From Carcharhinus amblyrhynchos (taxonomy: Eukaryota), in contig OZ336876.1 of assembly GCA_965287045.1 (NCBI GenBank), positions 70,742,001 to 70,806,000 of the forward strand: 64,000 nucleotides of DNA. Direction: 5' to 3'. Positions 51,701 to 63,700 of this stretch are shown here, piece by piece (position 1 is the stretch's first letter; the number at the start of each line of letters is the position of its first letter). A program made the position numbers.

Positions 51701-54700
51701 GAGGAGACAGCGTGGCTTTGGGGGCGCGGTCTGGAGTGTGACGTCGTCGCTCTGCTGGCGAGGGAGTATGAGCCTAGAGCACGCGCGGTGTGTCTGTAGA
51801 TTCCATCCATCAGAGCGCCTTGACCCCAGGCACTTATATTCTCATTGCAATATATTGCAGCAGTTCTGTGCGAGTTCCTGCCCGCCGATTAATACTTAAG
51901 AATTGGTGCCTCTATTAAAGTGGTTCTGAATCAGGTAATGTCGAGTGTTCGTTACCATTCCACATAATGAGTTTTGCCACGGTGGCAATGATGCCATGTC
52001 TCTCTGCCTGTGTTGTTTTTTTTGTCGCCTTTCAGATAACCAGCTGTTTCTGACCGCAAGCTTTGTTTGGGTCCAAGCTGTTGTCATTCTCACGCCTGTA
52101 AAGTCGCTCGTACCACCCGAATGGCGGAGAGGTAAGTAAGCAGCAGTTACAAACAGTTCATAAACTGAAAGCAACGCGAAGCAGCGGCAATTTATTTAAA
52201 AAAAATAGATTCTACTGACTTCTCCTGATTCCCTTAATAGGTGGTGGAGGCATTGGATTCAAGACAACATCGCAACGGTCAAAGCCAAGGTATGGAGTTT
52301 TTAAAAAAAAATCAGACTTCCTGCAAAGCCGAATAAAGTGGTATTGCAATTCGTGAGATTGCTTTAGAATGTTTAACAATTAAACTTGCTAATGATTTTG
52401 TTAAGGATTCTAACACTCTGTCCATTCCATTCATTTCTGCCGTTATATCCCATTACAGACCTACTTTGATAAATATAATCCCAAATCTTCATGTCTGCAC
52501 ATCCTTGGAGACGGGGTGTAGGGTTGGCTGATGAGTCTTGGGCCTCTATGGAAGATCTTGGGTAGGAATTGCTTGGGAAGTTTAGACTATCCTGGGATAG
52601 CCATGATGTGGAGATGCTCGGGTGGGCACAGTAAAAGCAGGTTAAAGTCCAACAGGTTTATTTGGAATCATGAGCTTTCGGCGCACTGCTCCTTCATCAG
52701 GTTAGTCTTTGTATAGGAATTGCCCTTAAAGTTTAGACTTCCCTGGGATAGTCCGTGAATGTCTCCATCCCAACTTGGTATCTAGGCTAGAGACATGCAA
52801 CTTACCTGGATACTGATCTAGGGAATGTTATAGTTGAAAACCTGGTCTAACACCTGGATAACTCCACAACCAAACTCACCCGACCCCTCACAATCCACCA
52901 TCATGCAATGCCTCCCATCACACACCACCCTCCTCCCAGAAATACAACTAACCTCCCTGAGCAGATAGGACTAACTCCCCTTCACTAAGCTCCCTCCTCT
53001 GAACACCCCCTTGACCACTTGATTGCCCCCCTCCCCCCCAATAATCAGAAAACCCAGCCACTCGTAGACATTCCTGACTACTACCCTCACCTCCATCCCG
53101 GTCTGACCTGACTATCCCAGTGATCACCCGACTACTAACCTTATGCATGTCACCAACCTACCCAATCACTCATTCATTCACCCATTCGTCTATACGCTCA
53201 TTCATTCAGTAACCCGCACTCATTCATCAAAAGACTGGATTTTTGAAAACCTTCCTTTAAACTAGAAAGGATGGGGGGAGGGAATTGCGATGGGGAAACT
53301 GGGATGGAGGAGGTTAGCTCCCAGGTAGGGGAGGACCGCAGGCAGAATGGGAGGGAGGTTAGACAGGGGGTGGAGAAGGGAAATGCCCAGACTGAGGGGC
53401 TGAAGTGTATATATTTTAATGCAAGGAGTGTAGTGAATAAGGTAGATGAGCTTAGGGCGTGGATTGCTGCTTGGGATTGTGATGTGGTGGCCATTACGGA
53501 GACTTGGATGTCTCAGGGACAGGCCTGGGTATTTCAGGTGCCAGGTTTCAGATGCTTCAGGAAGGACAGGGAGGATGGCAGAAGAGGTGGTGGAGTGGCA
53601 CTGTTGATCAGGGACAGTGTCATGGCTGCAGAGAAAGAGGATGCCGTGGAGGGACTATCTACAGAGTCTCTGTGGGTGGAAGTTACGAACAGCAAAGGGT
53701 CGAAAACTTTGCTGGGTGTATTCTACAGGCCACCCAATAGTGACAGGGAAGTTGAAGTGCAGATAGGGAAACAGATTCTGGAGAGATGTATTAATAACAG
53801 AGTTGTCGTGATGGGAGACTTCAATTTCCCAAACATCGACTGGAATATCCCTAGGGTAAGGGGTTTGGATGGGGAGGAGTTTGTTAGGTGTGTTCAGGAA
53901 GGTTTCCTGACACAGTATGTGGATAAGCCTACGAGGGGAGAGGCTGTACTTGACCTGGTACTGGCGAATGAACCAGGGCAGGTGATGGATCTCTCGGTAG
54001 GAGAGCATCTTGGGAATGGTGACCATAATTCTATCTCCTTCACAATTGCATTGGAACGAGATAGGATCAGGCAGGCTAGGAAGGTGTTTGTCTGGAGTAA
54101 GGGGAGATACAAAGAAGTCAGGAAGTTACTTGGACAAATAAACTGGAAGGAGGTGTTCTTAGGGAAAAGTACCGAAGGAAGGTGGCGGATATTCAAGGAA
54201 TGTTTGTCTGGAGCTATGCATGACAACGTTCCGATGAGACAAGGGGGTTTTGGTAGGTCGCGGGAACCGTGGTGCACGAAGGCTGTGTTGAACCTAGTCA
54301 GGAGGAAAGGGAAGGTGTACAAAAGGTTCAGGGAACTAGGAGAGGTTAAGGATCTTGAGGAGTATAAGGACTGTAGAAAGGAGCTTAAAAGGGAAATTAG
54401 GAGAGCCAGAAGGGGTCATGAGAAGACCTTGGCGGGTAAGATTAAGGAGAATCCCAAGGCCTTCTATAAATATGTGAAAGGTGAAAGGATGAGAAGAGAA
54501 GGGATAGGACCTATAAAAGGTGAAGGGGGAAAGGTCTGTGTGGAACCAGAAGAAATGGCAGAGGTGCTTAATGAGTACTTTGCCTCAGTATTCACGGTGG
54601 AAGCTGATCTGGGAGATTTTGCTACGGATTTGCAGCAGATGGAAAAGATTGAGTTTGTGGATATTAAGGTGGAGGATGTGTTAGAACTTTTGAATTCTAT

Positions 54701-60700: not shown

Positions 60701-63700
60701 GAGCCAAATGGTCTACTTAAATGCCATTATGACTGAGACACAATTCTCTACCCTAACAAGAACTAAACAATGTTAGTGATTCAGAATAATGCATCCAGGG
60801 TAATAAGAAAACAATGTGCAGATTTGCTATTCCTTGTGGCCTGTGTAACGAACAAGATTTGTCATTTTCACTGTGTTTCTAACTCCAGTGCAAAGCAATT
60901 TCTTAGATATTCACCTGACTTGCTCATCTCAGATTTAATGATTATACTGAAATTGTTGGTTTCAGCCTCCCTACATATCCTTCCTTCATGGTTCAGTCTC
61001 ACTTTTGCTTTGAATGTGCATAATGAAAAAAGATCAGTGCTTCTTTTTAGTGAGTAACCTGCAGGAAACATTTTCTGTAATTCAAAATATTCAAATTTAT
61101 TTTAGCTCTTTCCAGCAAATTAAATACTGAATTTCAAAGCTGACCTGTTTTCGGTGATTATTTGGATGAGCTCACTCTTTTCTCATTCTATGTGAATCCT
61201 TTTATGTCTGCAGATCAATTTAACTTCTGGCTGTTGACCTTCAGCTTGGAAGATGAGAACTGTTCAATATCGGATCTCTTGGTCAATAGTCCACCAATAA
61301 GAGATCTTTACGCAAAACTGGTAAATTTAACAGAAAACATTTTTGGTGAATTAAAATATTTAGATAAGTTGCATGCAACCACACATATGCAAAGATGGAT
61401 TTCGCTTCCAGCTCTTGAGGAGTCAGTTCGCTGTGTTGGCAGGATGGCTGGTTAGTGATGCAGAGCACAGGTTCAATTCTTGTATCGGCTGATGTTATTC
61501 ATAAAGGCTTGCCTTTCAACCTTGCCCTTTTTCCTGAGGTGTTTCCTGATCCTCAGGTAAAATTGCCACCAGTCAGCTCTCCATCAAAAGGGAGAGCAGC
61601 CTATGGTCATCTTGGACTTTACCTTACTTATAGATTACTTTGTATTCTTGGAAGAAAAATATGGATTGTGAAGCTAAAACAATTTCTTCAAATTGCTGCA
61701 AAAAATATTCAAATTCAGTTTGAGCTAACAATTTTATCTTCATCATATTATTCCTGTAAACTTTTAAAAAGTTGTGGTTTAGAAGAGTGGGCTGAAATAT
61801 TATTCTTTTGAGGATCAACTTTGCAGTCTCATTTTTGTGAATGAGCTAAGCCGTGCTAATTTAAGCAAGTCTGTTAATTTTATGTAACTCATGAGAAGCA
61901 TTGTTTTATTAATAGACTCTTTATGCTTTAACTTTACTGTGCTTGTATTGTGTATTTGAGCTTTTTATGTTTGATTTGCCTATTTTTATTTGAAATATTT
62001 TAACAGGTTCCTTCTGAGGTCACTCATGCTGACTTTTGGTGTCGGTATTTCTACAGAGTACACCAACTTCATCAGGTCAGGACTGCAATGGATAGACATT
62101 TTCTGGACAAGACAATAAAGATGCGCAGTATGGGTACTAACATTAATTTCAGCATCTCTGGGCACCGATGGTGGGATGGCAGATGAAAGTAAACAATTGC
62201 TGTAAATTCCCCTGTTTTGGATGGCAGATGAGGAGTAGGTCATGTTTGGTTGTAGCACCCTCTGGATCAAATGTCTAGTTAGCACAGAGGATCACTCCTA
62301 GTAAGTTTGATTATTGGAAGGTGATTAACATTCATGAAAATGCTGTACTACGATTCATCTTTTTCAAGAGCAAGAAAGGATGAGGACAGAAAAGCAGAGA
62401 CAAAGTTTGACAGAAAATGGGATTTGAGGATGGGAGTTGCTGTGAAATTCTCCTATTGGTGAAACTTGGGGACTGTGTTGGTGGTTAGTTCTAACTAATT
62501 ATTCTATTGAATATTGGATTTCTGTAGGCAAAAGCATTTGTAATAAATTGATGTCATTTCCAGACAAGTGATGCTGATTGTGCTATTCTATTAAAAAAGA
62601 CAATTAAAATAGCCTTAAGAAGAGGTAAGCTTATAATAAAAGCAAAATGGTACCAAAATGTTTTCTCTTGGGTAGGGCAGTGGTGTAGTGGTATTGTTAC
62701 AGGACTAGTAATCCAGAAATCCAGGGTAATGTTCTGGGGACCCTGATTCAAATCCTACCATTGCAGATGGTAAAATTCAAATTAAGTAATAAAAAACGTG
62801 GAATTAAAATATTAACCATGAACATGAACCCATTGTTGATTGTCATAAAAACTTGTTCAGTTCACTAGTTTCCTTTAGGGAAGGAAATCTGTCGTCCTTA
62901 CCTGGTCTCGCCTACGTGTGACTCCAGCAATGTGGGTTGACTGTTAAATACCCTCAGAGATGGGCAGTAAATGCTGACCCGTGCAGTAATGCCCACATCC
63001 CACAAACAAATAAAACAAAATATTCCACATTATCAGCAAGTGCAGGATGATGGAATGTTGTTGCCTTGTTTCAAACTTGTGCACCTTCCAAGTGACTTGC
63101 CCAACTAGCGCCATAAAATAGCAGAATCACCATTTGATTTGATTTATTATTGTCACATGTATAGTATGAAATGAAAAGTATTGTTTTTTGTGTGCTGTAC
63201 AGACAGAGCATACTGTATATAGAGAAGAAAATGAGGGAGTGCAGAATGTAATGTTGCAGTCATAGCTAGGGTGGAAAAAGATCAAATTAATGCAAGGTGG
63301 ATCCATTTAAAAATCTGATGGCAGAGTAGAGAGACAGCTATGCCACAGTTTGTTTAGTGGAATACTGTGTTTATAAGAACCATCACTGGAAGTTTTTTTT
63401 GAGGCTCCCAGCTTATTAAATATTAGCAGCTCTTACTGAGGGGGCTGACTGTTGTTCTGGCCATATTGTACAAGTAGTAATTCAGATCTATGGGGCACAG
63501 TTCACCCAAAGAAAAAGACTATCATCTCAGGTGGGAATTGCATCATGTTTGGGTGCGATCCCGATTGCAATCCGCCCATGACTAGTCATCTTTTTGGACG
63601 GGAATGGGGTTTGTGCGGGGTTGGGCTTACACATGTTGGTACACAAATCAGGTTCCTCTGAGATTGAGGTGCCTTTTAAAAAGGATGCTCCAATTTTTGA

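What the first reader, a model, noticed from the sequence alone, without database searches (positions are those of the whole stretch)
52121..62075. Intact, divergent BSDC1 paralog next to TUBE1: candidate WGD ohnolog lost in mammals
Seen: seven in-frame GT-AG exons, almost invisible in the ORF track, encode an N-terminal WWRxW helix, DL.EFTQV.QHDT..TIAATA, LQ.DPATY and a BSD domain (FWCRYFYRVHQL). Junction positions are colinear with BSDC1 as I recall it, but the sequence is much more diverged than the neighbouring TUBE1 (24 of 39 identities in exon 3 against the human sequence recalled from memory). Known: human 6q21 has FYN-CCN6-TUBE1-FAM229B-LAMA4 with MARCKS and HDAC2 nearby and no BSD gene, while BSDC1 lies at 1p35 with LCK, HDAC1, MARCKSL1 and FAM229A, the paralogous block. 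Inference: this is a second, unnamed BSDC1 ohnolog retained in cartilaginous fish, of unknown function and probably co-expressed with a centriolar tubulin.
Basis: partly seen in the sequence, partly recalled or inferred. Interest (0 to 1): 0.75.

Follow-up and report, generated by a model that had tools for sequence, protein, structure and literature searches.

The report
Second BSDC1 gene beside shark TUBE1
This is the first half of a real second copy of the little-studied BSDC1 gene, which sharks, rays and chimaeras keep head-to-head with the epsilon-tubulin gene and bony vertebrates seem to have lost; it is a tidy but fairly ordinary case of an old duplicate kept in one lineage.

Summary
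Seven open exons lie on the + strand (52121-62075, 576 nt, 192 codons) and 6 of 6 introns are GT..AG. Exon 7 alone passes Pfam's BSD cut-off. Summed exon by exon, 176 of 187 in-frame residues match NCBI's 'BSD domain-containing protein 1-like' of Mustelus asterias. Only 49-53% match BSDC1 proper of any species. Eleven chondrichthyan species, the chimaera included, list both genes, so this is a paralog, not a moved BSDC1. No bony-vertebrate member was found.

A WGD origin is likely but not proven. The ML tree puts the clade outside gnathostome BSDC1 (bootstrap 88). AU tests do not reject a chondrichthyan-only duplication (p 0.13 and 0.35). The main support is position: a CCN-like gene, TUBE1, then this gene.

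New here: TUBE1 exon 1 starts 532 nt from this gene's ATG, head-to-head inside a CpG island.

The gene runs off the window after exon 7, so 'intact' is shown for the 5' half only. Automatic annotation already carries the gene. A 2026 paper reports 135 shark-only ohnologs. Interest is modest.

The parts
52121..52131 (+). BSDC1-like exon 1, coding part (ATG plus 8 nt)
   Evidence: ATG followed by a GTAAGT donor. It gives the same first four residues as the Mustelus protein P0002.
52241..52289 (+). BSDC1-like exon 2 (WWRHW start of the N-terminal helix)
   Evidence: AG acceptor and GT donor. tblastn against P0002 residues 4-20, E 4e-05. 14 of 16 in-frame residues match P0002.
57098..57214 (+). 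BSDC1-like exon 3 (39 codons, DLAEF..QHDT..IAATA block)
   Evidence: 38 of 39 residues match P0002 and 24 of 39 match Orycteropus BSDC1. The S. torazame model P0016 lacks exactly residues 21-59.
59206..59373 (+). BSDC1-like exon 4 (56 codons, least conserved)
   Evidence: 51 of 56 residues match P0002 and 18-23 of 56 match BSDC1 proper.
59467..59521 (+). BSDC1-like exon 5 (LQIDPATY; ends in phase 1)
   Evidence: 16 of 18 residues match P0002. The unnamed 179-aa protein P0014 reads on past this donor.
61214..61320 (+). BSDC1-like exon 6 (first part of the BSD domain)
   Evidence: 34 of 35 residues match P0002. The BSD domain of P0002 is residues 142-196. The Amblyraja isoform P0013 lacks exactly exons 5 and 6.
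62007..62075 (+). BSDC1-like exon 7 (BSD core, FWCRYFY)
   Evidence: Pfam BSD at 35.4 bits against a cut-off of 24.6, on this exon alone. 23 of 23 residues match P0002. The Chiloscyllium isoform P0006 lacks exactly this exon. A GT donor follows.
51400..52400 (.). CpG island spanning both start codons; likely shared bidirectional promoter
   Evidence: G+C is 0.55-0.60 at 51400-51999 and falls to 0.41-0.45 by 52399. CpG observed/expected is 0.83-0.99 across the whole stretch, against a window mean of 0.28.
51564..51588 (-). TUBE1 exon 1, coding part (8 codons plus 1 nt)
   Evidence: The 8 residues equal residues 1-8 of Carcharodon TUBE1 P0122, and a GT donor follows. Its ATG is 532 nt from the BSDC1-like ATG.
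26882..46512 (-). TUBE1 exons 2-12
   Evidence: 11 ordered tblastn matches to P0122 residues 9-475, 465 of 521 aligned positions identical. One exon gave 'tubulin epsilon chain' hits at up to 98% identity.
53247..56063 (+). Non-LTR retrotransposon ORF (938 codons, no stop) inside intron 2; not part of the gene
   Evidence: Pfam Exo_endo_phos 4e-16 and RVT_1 8e-33. A 5'-truncated copy, 89-97% identical, lies at 47059-48484 in TUBE1 intron 1.

Best explanation
The stretch is the 5' half (exons 1-7, codons 1-192 of about 435) of a working protein-coding gene. It is the chondrichthyan 'BSDC1-like' gene, a second member of the BSDC1 family. The window comes from a shark; the closest named relative in the database is Mustelus.

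What the ortholog model suggests about the protein: a long N-terminal helix that begins with a tryptophan cluster, one BSD domain, a long disordered acidic middle, and a short conserved C-terminal acidic helix shared with BSDC1. I infer a soluble scaffold that keeps BSDC1's basic binding surfaces. This copy has evolved about two to three times faster than BSDC1.

The gene is transcribed divergently from TUBE1, out of one CpG island. The two are therefore probably switched on together (inferred).

Origin: most likely one of the two copies made by the early vertebrate genome duplications. BSDC1 proper stayed with FAM229A, MARCKSL1, HDAC1 and LCK. This copy stayed in the sister block with CCN6, TUBE1, probably FAM229B, LAMA4, MARCKS, HDAC2 and FYN. 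It was later lost in the bony-vertebrate stem. Whether the split was 1R or 2R is open.

Shown: exon structure, BSD domain, family membership, two genes per species, the TUBE1 neighbourhood, the CpG island.
Inferred: WGD origin, co-expression, biochemical role.
For: - Gene model: 7 exons, 6 of 6 introns GT..AG, no stop in frame. All 28 columns (within residues 1-192) that are invariant across 38 named family members, and all 43 nearly invariant ones, are kept.
- Exon borders recur as exact isoform or model gaps in 4 other species.
- BSD domain: exon 7 alone scores 35.4 bits. The ortholog P0002 scores 59.2 bits over residues 142-196. The model's 10-residue block means for residues 131-200 are pLDDT 84-93. 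The best PDB fold match is the SYAP1 BSD domain.
- Paralog: summed exon by exon, the window matches the L clade at 60-94% and BSDC1 proper at 49-53%. The figure is the same for shark and bony-vertebrate BSDC1.
- 11 species list both genes.
- The L clade is 100/100. The ML tree puts it outside gnathostome BSDC1 (88/94), inside a vertebrate clade (98/91). The topology was the same with 65 rows.
- Site patterns: 4 columns fit 'L outside', against 1 and 1 for the two alternatives, at the loosest threshold.
- Position: TUBE1 and a CCN-like gene are in the window.
BSDC1 proper and TUBE1 differ in 6 of 6 bony vertebrates.
- The mammalian blocks are in print.
- Transcription in a relative: the 429-aa protein P0015 sits on a 2,279-nt contig, far shorter than the gene, so that contig is spliced.
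- Promoter: the ATGs are 532 nt apart, head-to-head, in a CpG island.
Against: - AU tests do not reject the tree in which L and chondrichthyan BSDC1 form one clade. The log-likelihood difference is 17.97 with p 0.129 (65 rows) and 3.36 with p 0.347 (53 rows).
- The L stem is long (1.14-1.25 changes per column), so its basal position could be long-branch attraction.
- The informative site patterns are very few.
- The outgroups are unnamed representatives. Their names could not be fetched, so no identified cyclostome or amphioxus sequence anchors the node.
- The neighbours of BSDC1 proper in any shark were not seen. Neither was the gene downstream of this one.
- Exons 8 onward lie outside the window, so this particular copy could be broken downstream.
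- There are no expression data, and no transcription start sites.
- BSDC1 itself has no established function in the papers searched.
Confidence: 0.72

Rival explanations
1. A duplication confined to the chondrichthyan stem (small-scale or segmental, after the split from bony vertebrates and before the chimaera-elasmobranch split). The new copy then evolved fast. Nothing was lost in bony vertebrates, because they never had it.
For: AU tests do not reject this topology (p 0.129; p 0.347). The clade holds chondrichthyans only. Its stem is long and its rate is raised, which could pull it towards the outgroups. One site pattern fits this view.
Against: - The ML tree prefers L outside all gnathostome BSDC1.
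- The window's exons are no closer to shark BSDC1 (93 of 187) than to coelacanth, aardvark or Danio BSDC1 (92-99 of 187).
- The copy would have had to land by chance beside TUBE1, in the block that mirrors BSDC1's own block gene for gene: FAM229, MARCKS, HDAC and Src-kinase pairs.
Confidence: 0.17
2. The copy in this genome is a decaying or unexpressed gene. Its first seven exons happen still to be open, and the damage lies in exons 8 onward or in the promoter.
For: Only 192 of about 435 codons are in the window. A 938-codon LINE ORF lies in the sense direction in intron 2. There are no expression data.
Against: No stop in 7 of 7 exons and all splice sites are intact. All 28 invariant family columns are kept. 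176 of 187 residues match the Mustelus ortholog. A CpG island survives at the start. Orthologs are kept from chimaera to rays.
Confidence: 0.04
3. It is the genome's only BSDC1, simply moved next to TUBE1.
For: The window's own genome could not be searched for a second gene.
Against: Its nearest listed relative, Mustelus asterias, has both genes (P0002 and P0040) on different contigs, as do 10 further species. The window matches the L copy at 94% and the BSDC1 copy at 50%.
Confidence: 0.01

Closest known systems
NCBI gene models 'BSD domain-containing protein 1-like' of sharks, rays and skates (for example Mustelus asterias P0002, Cetorhinus maximus P0001), and the Callorhinchus milii model named 'BSDC1' (P0019)
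   Same: The same gene in other species. Identity over the window's 187 in-frame residues is 94%, 88% and 60%. The exon borders agree. The gene shares a chromosome with TUBE1 in 5 of 5 species that could be checked.
   Different: None in kind. The window's species is not among the listed records at 100% identity. These are automatic predictions, and no paper was found that discusses them.
BSDC1 proper (vertebrate BSD domain-containing protein 1)
   Same: The same architecture: a Trp-rich N-terminal helix, the DLxEF..QxDT block, one BSD domain, a disordered middle and a C-terminal acidic motif. 47 columns are invariant across both clades.
   Different: - Only 49-53% identity over exons 2-7, and 42% full length within Mustelus.
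- A 3-residue deletion before the BSD domain, and a different stretch before the C-terminal motif.
- A faster rate: 56% against 73% identity between Mustelus and Callorhinchus.
- A different chromosome.
- Present only in chondrichthyans.
Other BSD-domain proteins (SYAP1; TFIIH p62/GTF2H1)
   Same: They share the BSD domain. The best fold match is 1x3a (E 0.074, target TM 0.61). The weak profile matches are 1x3a (E 0.11) and 6nmi_C (E 0.67).
   Different: There is no similarity outside the roughly 55-residue domain. That p62 carries two BSD domains and works inside TFIIH is recalled, not tested here. No member of the BSDC1 family has a solved structure.
Ohnologs kept only in sharks (135 reported in PMC13450315; passages read)
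   Same: The same evolutionary pattern: two copies in sharks, one in every other jawed vertebrate, and hard to prove by phylogeny alone, as that paper itself says.
   Different: Whether BSDC1 is among the 135 could not be seen. The list is in that paper's tables or website, and 'BSDC1' does not occur in its main text (listing).
Head-to-head gene pairs on a shared CpG-island promoter
   Same: The start codons are 532 nt apart on opposite strands, inside a CpG island.
   Different: Transcription starts and co-expression were not measured. That FAM229B takes this position beside TUBE1 in mammals is recalled. Only their linkage is documented.

Membership tests
BSD domain (Pfam PF03909) | Score above Pfam's gathering cut-off | tested here: met
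   Exon 7 alone scores 35.4 bits against a cut-off of 24.6, covering profile positions 32-53 of 58. Exon 6 alone gave no hit. The ortholog P0002 scores 59.2 bits over residues 142-196.
BSD domain (Pfam PF03909) | Small helical fold like solved BSD domains | tested here: inconclusive
   Only the Mustelus ortholog was folded, not the window's spliced model. The 10-residue block means for residues 131-200 are pLDDT 84-93, but the whole-model mean is 54.3. The best Foldseek hit is 1x3a (SYAP1 BSD) at E 0.074 and target TM 0.61. No match reaches E 0.001.
BSDC1 family (BSDC1 plus BSDC1-like) | Conserved N-terminal blocks and BSD residues shared by all members | tested here: met
   28 of 28 invariant columns and 43 of 43 nearly invariant columns, within residues 1-192 of a 38-sequence named alignment, are kept in the window's exons.
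BSDC1 family (BSDC1 plus BSDC1-like) | Conserved C-terminal acidic motif and Trp-acidic tail | not testable with these tools
   That part lies beyond the window's 3' end. It is present in all aligned orthologs.
BSDC1 proper (orthologs of mammalian BSDC1) | Groups with BSDC1 of other jawed vertebrates and is the species' only copy | tested here: not met
   49-53% identity to BSDC1 proper against 60-94% to the L clade. The L clade is 100/100 and lies outside the 27-row BSDC1 clade. 11 species list both genes.
Vertebrate 1R/2R ohnolog pair | Duplication node after the invertebrate split and before the crown of jawed vertebrates | tested here: inconclusive
   The ML topology agrees (vertebrate clade 98/91; gnathostome BSDC1 without L 88/94). 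The AU tests do not reject a chondrichthyan-only duplication (p 0.129 and 0.347). The outgroups are unnamed.
Vertebrate 1R/2R ohnolog pair | The two copies lie in paralogous chromosome blocks | tested here: inconclusive
   The window shows a CCN-like gene, TUBE1 and L together. Papers show BSDC1 with FAM229A, HDAC1, LCK and MARCKSL1, and TUBE1 with FAM229B, LAMA4, FYN, WISP3, MARCKS and HDAC2 in mammals. The shark neighbours of BSDC1 proper and the genes downstream of L were not seen.
Bidirectional CpG-island promoter pair | Divergent genes whose starts lie under 1 kb apart, in a CpG island | tested here: met
   532 nt lie between the two ATGs on opposite strands. CpG observed/expected is 0.83-0.99 over 51400-52400, against 0.28 for the window. 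The transcription starts themselves are unknown.
Bidirectional CpG-island promoter pair | Correlated expression of the two genes | not testable with these tools
   No expression data are within reach.

The most novel reading that the evidence does not exclude
The TUBE1/BSDC1-like head-to-head unit is an old, selected pairing, kept since before chimaeras and sharks parted. On this reading it points to a centriole or cilium-linked job for the BSDC1 family, whose function is unknown in any animal. When bony vertebrates lost the L copy, another gene took over the shared promoter (FAM229B by recall), and any centriolar role passed to BSDC1 proper or was dropped.
Probability: 0.1. Interest if true: 0.55.

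Novelty: new member of a known kind. Interest (0 to 1): 0.33.

Why it matters
BSDC1 is a widely conserved animal protein with no established function. The 65 papers that mention it are almost all gene lists, judged from the 25 rows listed. The one functional note read in passages is a candidate HIP1 partner whose knockdown raised cell adhesion.

A second, faster-evolving copy gives a natural experiment. It has been kept for the whole history of cartilaginous fishes and is wired to the epsilon-tubulin promoter. Its expression pattern and partners in catshark or skate could hint at what the family does.

For genome evolution it adds one well-documented locus to the class of ohnologs kept only in sharks. 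It also shows plainly that for such fast copies position carries the argument and the protein tree does not.

It is not a surprise to a specialist. The gene is already in automatic annotation, and the class is already described.

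Tried and rejected
- Exon 3 as a 39-aa query was too short for the homolog search. I resent it as 44 aa, with the window's own flanking codons.
- Pfam on exons 3, 4, 5 and 6 singly gave nothing. Only exon 7 carries enough of the BSD profile.
- A tubulin GGGTG-type motif scan missed TUBE1, because an intron splits the motif. 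A second scan found it.
It is therefore unknown whether P0242 is a cyclostome sequence. Its position is near BSDC1 proper with weak support (61/12), its amino-acid make-up is unusual, and it carries BSDC1-type C-terminal motifs.
- The atlas search meant to name the CCN-like gene was not decisive. A WISP3-variant cluster appeared only at rank 15, score 0.78. I call it CCN-like; CCN6 is suggested by position only.
- Rhinatrema and Acipenser proteins labelled 'BSDC1-like' fall inside BSDC1 proper, so they are not orthologs of this gene.
- The unnamed trio P0247, P0248 and P0249 share some L-like residues near the N-terminus. They form their own clade outside the vertebrate clade.
- Rates do not separate the two origins. 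The L stem is 1.14 against about 0.66 along the BSDC1 path, which fits the two- to three-fold faster crown rate, but the rival would need only a moderately faster stem (my arithmetic).
- ORFs of 117-189 codons inside introns 3, 5 and 6 have no Pfam family, so I dismissed them as coding.
- The PDB sequence search with the family profile gave only E 0.11 and 0.67.
- No dN/dS: no coding DNA of orthologs is within reach.

Full report
WHAT IS THERE. On the + strand between 52121 and 62075 lie seven short coding exons: 52121-52131, 52241-52289, 57098-57214, 59206-59373, 59467-59521, 61214-61320 and 62007-62075. They sum to 576 nt, or 192 codons. All six introns begin GT and end AG, a GT follows exon 7, the phases fit, and no exon has a stop in its frame. 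The window has no N. It is not human: every close match is to sharks.

IS IT MORE THAN CHANCE. Exon 7 alone scores 35.4 bits against Pfam's BSD domain, whose cut-off is 24.6. Exons 3-6 alone give nothing. Exon 3, sent with a few of the window's own flanking codons because 39 aa was under the tool's minimum, found 15 proteins at E 0.001 or better among 96 candidates. Thirteen are named 'BSD domain-containing protein 1-like' from sharks, rays and skates, and two are unnamed.

tblastn with the best of them, Mustelus asterias P0002 (435 aa), finds exons 2-7 in order at E 4e-05 to 1e-32. The matches cover residues 4-192. Counted exon by exon, 176 of 187 in-frame residues equal P0002. All 28 invariant and all 43 nearly invariant columns that fall within residues 1-192 of a 38-sequence alignment of named family members are kept.

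The exon borders recur in other species' models as exact gaps:
- Chiloscyllium punctatum X2 lacks residues 170-192, which is exon 7.
- Amblyraja radiata X3 lacks residues 116-169, which is exons 5 and 6.
- Scyliorhinus torazame lacks residues 21-59, which is exon 3.
- S. canicula X2 lacks residues 89-115, the end of exon 4.

The limit is that no exon for residues 193-435 lies in 62076-64000. The gene runs off the window, so it is shown open only for its 5' half.

PARALOG, NOT ORTHOLOG. A search with the named ortholog P0002 gave 181 hits at E 0.001 or better among 7,367 candidates, of which the best 120 were listed. The first 18 rows (E 6e-113 or better) are all chondrichthyan: 17 named and 1 unnamed. 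Then comes a gap to 3.5e-79, where BSDC1 proper of lizards, mammals, birds, fishes and also sharks begins.

Eleven species list both genes: Mustelus asterias, Cetorhinus, Heptranchias, Pristiophorus, Heterodontus, Scyliorhinus canicula, S. torazame, Chiloscyllium punctatum, Pristis, Rhinoraja and the chimaera Callorhinchus. In Callorhinchus the L-type protein P0019 is labelled plain 'BSDC1'. In the 8 species where both sit on chromosome-scale contigs, the contig lengths differ.

The window's exons match the L clade at 94% (Mustelus), 88% (Cetorhinus), 73% (Pristis) and 60% (Callorhinchus). They match BSDC1 proper at 49-53%, whether from Mustelus, Callorhinchus, coelacanth, aardvark or Danio. 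I used a named non-human mammal in place of the recalled human sequence.

NO BONY-VERTEBRATE MEMBER. None appears. In the scan of 1.84 billion cluster representatives, 57 of the 1,113 hits at E 0.001 or better reach E 1e-30. Only P0004, P0008 and P0014 are of the L type among those I compared. Each of the 77 other representatives compared by BLASTP scores higher against Mustelus BSDC1 than against Mustelus L. The Rhinatrema and Acipenser proteins labelled 'BSDC1-like' fall inside BSDC1 proper. This rests on annotated proteins. An unannotated relic would be missed.

THE TREE.
- Rows used: 12 of the 18 L-type rows. I left out three exon-skipping models (P0006, P0013, P0016), one near-duplicate (P0012), one odd model (P0017) and the unnamed P0015. 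I also used 27 BSDC1 rows, picked for taxonomic spread from about 100 listed, and unnamed representatives as outgroups.
- Outgroups: 26 at first, then 14 after I dropped the 12 longest branches. Ten unnamed vertebrate-like fragments, one of which may be human, were never included.
- Quick tree (65 rows, 437 columns) and careful tree (53 rows, 412 columns): these agree. The L clade is 100/100 on a long stem (1.14-1.25). Gnathostome BSDC1 without L is 97 by SH-aLRT (quick) and 88/94 (careful). L, BSDC1 and the unnamed P0242 together form a clade at 98/91.
- Tests of the rival: the tree that holds L and chondrichthyan BSDC1 together is worse by 17.97 log-likelihood units (p-AU 0.129) and by 3.36 (p-AU 0.347). 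It is not rejected.
- Site patterns: conserved columns are few. Four fit 'L outside', one fits 'L with shark BSDC1' and one fits the control pattern at the loosest threshold. At the strictest the counts are 2, 0 and 0.

The protein tree leans towards an old duplication but cannot prove it. Names for the outgroups could not be fetched, so no identified cyclostome or amphioxus sequence anchors the node.

POSITION. TUBE1 lies on the - strand. Eleven ordered matches to Carcharodon TUBE1 run from 46512 down to 26882, covering residues 9-475. One exon returns 'tubulin epsilon chain' at up to 98% identity. Upstream, on the + strand, two cysteine-rich ORFs carry IGFBP (6712-7212) and VWC (9413-9781) domains, as a CCN protein does. 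The atlas could not name it further.

BSDC1 proper and TUBE1 differ in 6 of 6 bony vertebrates where both are listed: Pleurodeles, Lissotriton, Tiliqua, Hemicordylus, Balearica and Phalacrocorax. Equal length is taken to mean the same contig, and it does not show adjacency.

- A sheep chromosome-2 window of about 1 Mb holds BSDC1, FAM229A, HDAC1, LCK, MARCKSL1 and TSSK3 (PMC11161479, Table 3 passage).
- A cattle BTA9 region holds FAM229B, LAMA4 and TUBE1 (PMC8454143, one passage).
- A human 6q21-q22.1 deletion holds TRAF3IP2, FYN, WISP3, TUBE1, LAMA4, MARCKS and HDAC2 (PMC4457201, abstract and passages).

By their names and by established knowledge, FAM229A/B, HDAC1/2, MARCKSL1/MARCKS and LCK/FYN are paralog pairs. 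A BSDC1 copy sitting in the TUBE1 block is what a genome duplication predicts, and it is an unlikely landing place for a stray copy. This is my main reason for putting the ohnolog reading near 0.75. What I could not see: the neighbours of BSDC1 proper in a shark, and the gene downstream of L, because the window ends in intron 7.

NEW DETAIL: A SHARED PROMOTER. TUBE1's first coding exon was not at 46.5 kb. It lies at 51588-51564 on the - strand. Its eight codons equal residues 1-8 of Carcharodon TUBE1, and a GT donor follows. Its ATG is 532 nt from the L gene's ATG, and the two genes point away from each other. Both start codons lie in the window's clearest CpG island. From 51400 to 51999 G+C is 0.55-0.60, falling to 0.41-0.45 by 52399. 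CpG observed/expected is 0.83-0.99 throughout, against a window mean of 0.28. The LINE pieces at 47-50.5 kb lie inside TUBE1 intron 1. Co-regulation is therefore plausible on structural grounds. It is not measured.

THE PROTEIN. The fold was predicted for the Mustelus ortholog with a 38-sequence alignment, not for the window's model.
- Whole model: mean pLDDT 54.3, pTM 0.35.
- Residues 2-60: a helix, pLDDT 61-71.
- Residues 131-200: confident helices, block means pLDDT 84-93, covering the BSD domain (residues 142-196 by Pfam).
- Residues 224-395: disordered.
- Residues 406-418: a short helix over the C-terminal acidic motif, which is invariant in both clades.

The best PDB fold match is the SYAP1 BSD domain (1x3a, E 0.074, target TM 0.61). 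Nothing reaches E 0.001. No family member has a solved structure. Compared with BSDC1, L has a 3-residue deletion before the BSD domain and a changed stretch before the C-terminal motif. L evolves faster: Mustelus and Callorhinchus share 56% identity for L against 73% for BSDC1.

A 429-aa skate-like L protein sits on a 2,279-nt contig (P0015, unnamed). Another unnamed protein reads through intron 5 (P0014). Both show that a relative's gene is transcribed and spliced.

I commit to a soluble BSD-domain scaffold that keeps BSDC1's conserved binding surfaces and is expressed with TUBE1. That step is inference. BSDC1 itself has no established function in the papers I could search. Sixty-five papers mention it; 25 were listed and they are mostly gene lists. 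Passages read from one paper give it as a candidate HIP1 partner whose knockdown raised adhesion (PMC11079228).

NOVELTY. I found no paper on a BSDC1 paralog:
- 'BSDC1' with 'paralog' gave 3 papers, none relevant.
- 'BSDC1' alone gave 65 papers.
- 'BSD domain-containing protein 1' gave 4 papers.
- A mixed search with shark, ohnolog, duplication and synteny terms listed no paper that holds BSDC1 among the top 15.
- 'BSDC1' with 'centrosom' gave 6 papers, all gene lists by title and abstract.

The gene is nonetheless in NCBI's automatic annotation for 17 chondrichthyan rows. [quoted passage not shown] Its lists are in tables and a website that I could not see, because supplements are closed. They may already hold this pair.

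I rate it a new, well-documented member of a known kind, of modest interest.

NOT CHECKED. The closed collections (metagenome and viral contigs) and the bacterial genome collection have no bearing on a shark gene and were not used. The rest of this genome, expression data and ortholog coding DNA were out of reach.

Noticed in passing
window 53247-56063 (+), copy at 47059-48484 (+): A 938-codon stop-free ORF with endonuclease and reverse-transcriptase domains (a non-LTR retrotransposon, possibly still active) lies in the sense direction in intron 2 of the BSDC1-like gene. A 5'-truncated copy, 89-97% identical in five blocks, lies in TUBE1 intron 1.
   Followed up: partly
window 6712-7212 and 9413-9781 (+): Two cysteine-rich ORFs carry IGFBP (41.5 bits) and VWC (27.4 bits, just under the 27.6 cut-off) domains. 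They look like the first exons of a CCN-family gene, tail-to-tail with TUBE1. It is CCN6/WISP3 by position only; the atlas gave just a weak lead.
   Followed up: partly
window 51564-51588 (-) and 46520-51562: TUBE1's first coding exon lies 5 kb upstream of exon 2. Its intron 1 is filled with retrotransposon pieces, including a 520-codon RT ORF at 48941-50500 on the - strand.
   Followed up: yes
window 786-1328 (+): An ORF with a DDE_Tnp_4 transposase domain (80.5 bits), a PIF/Harbinger-type DNA transposon remnant or a domesticated relative, lies in a G+C-rich stretch (0.50-0.53) at the window's start.
   Followed up: partly
window 21341-24152 (-): Further endonuclease and RT ORFs of a LINE, broken into several frames, lie between the CCN-like gene and the 3' end of TUBE1. 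There is a strong negative GC skew at 22-24 kb.
   Followed up: no
protein P0019 (Callorhinchus milii): NCBI and UniRef label the chimaera's L-type protein plain 'BSD domain-containing protein 1', while the true BSDC1 of that species is P0059. The label would mislead orthology tables. In the alignment P0019 also carries an extra stretch of about 40 residues at its N-terminus, perhaps a model error.
   Followed up: partly
protein P0242 (unnamed representative): A 439-aa BSDC1-type protein with an unusual amino-acid make-up (Ala, Gly, Pro and Ser rich by eye) and BSDC1-type C-terminal motifs branches at the base of gnathostome BSDC1 (61/12). It may be a cyclostome sequence. If so, it bears on whether the split was 1R or 2R. 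Its name could not be fetched.
   Followed up: partly
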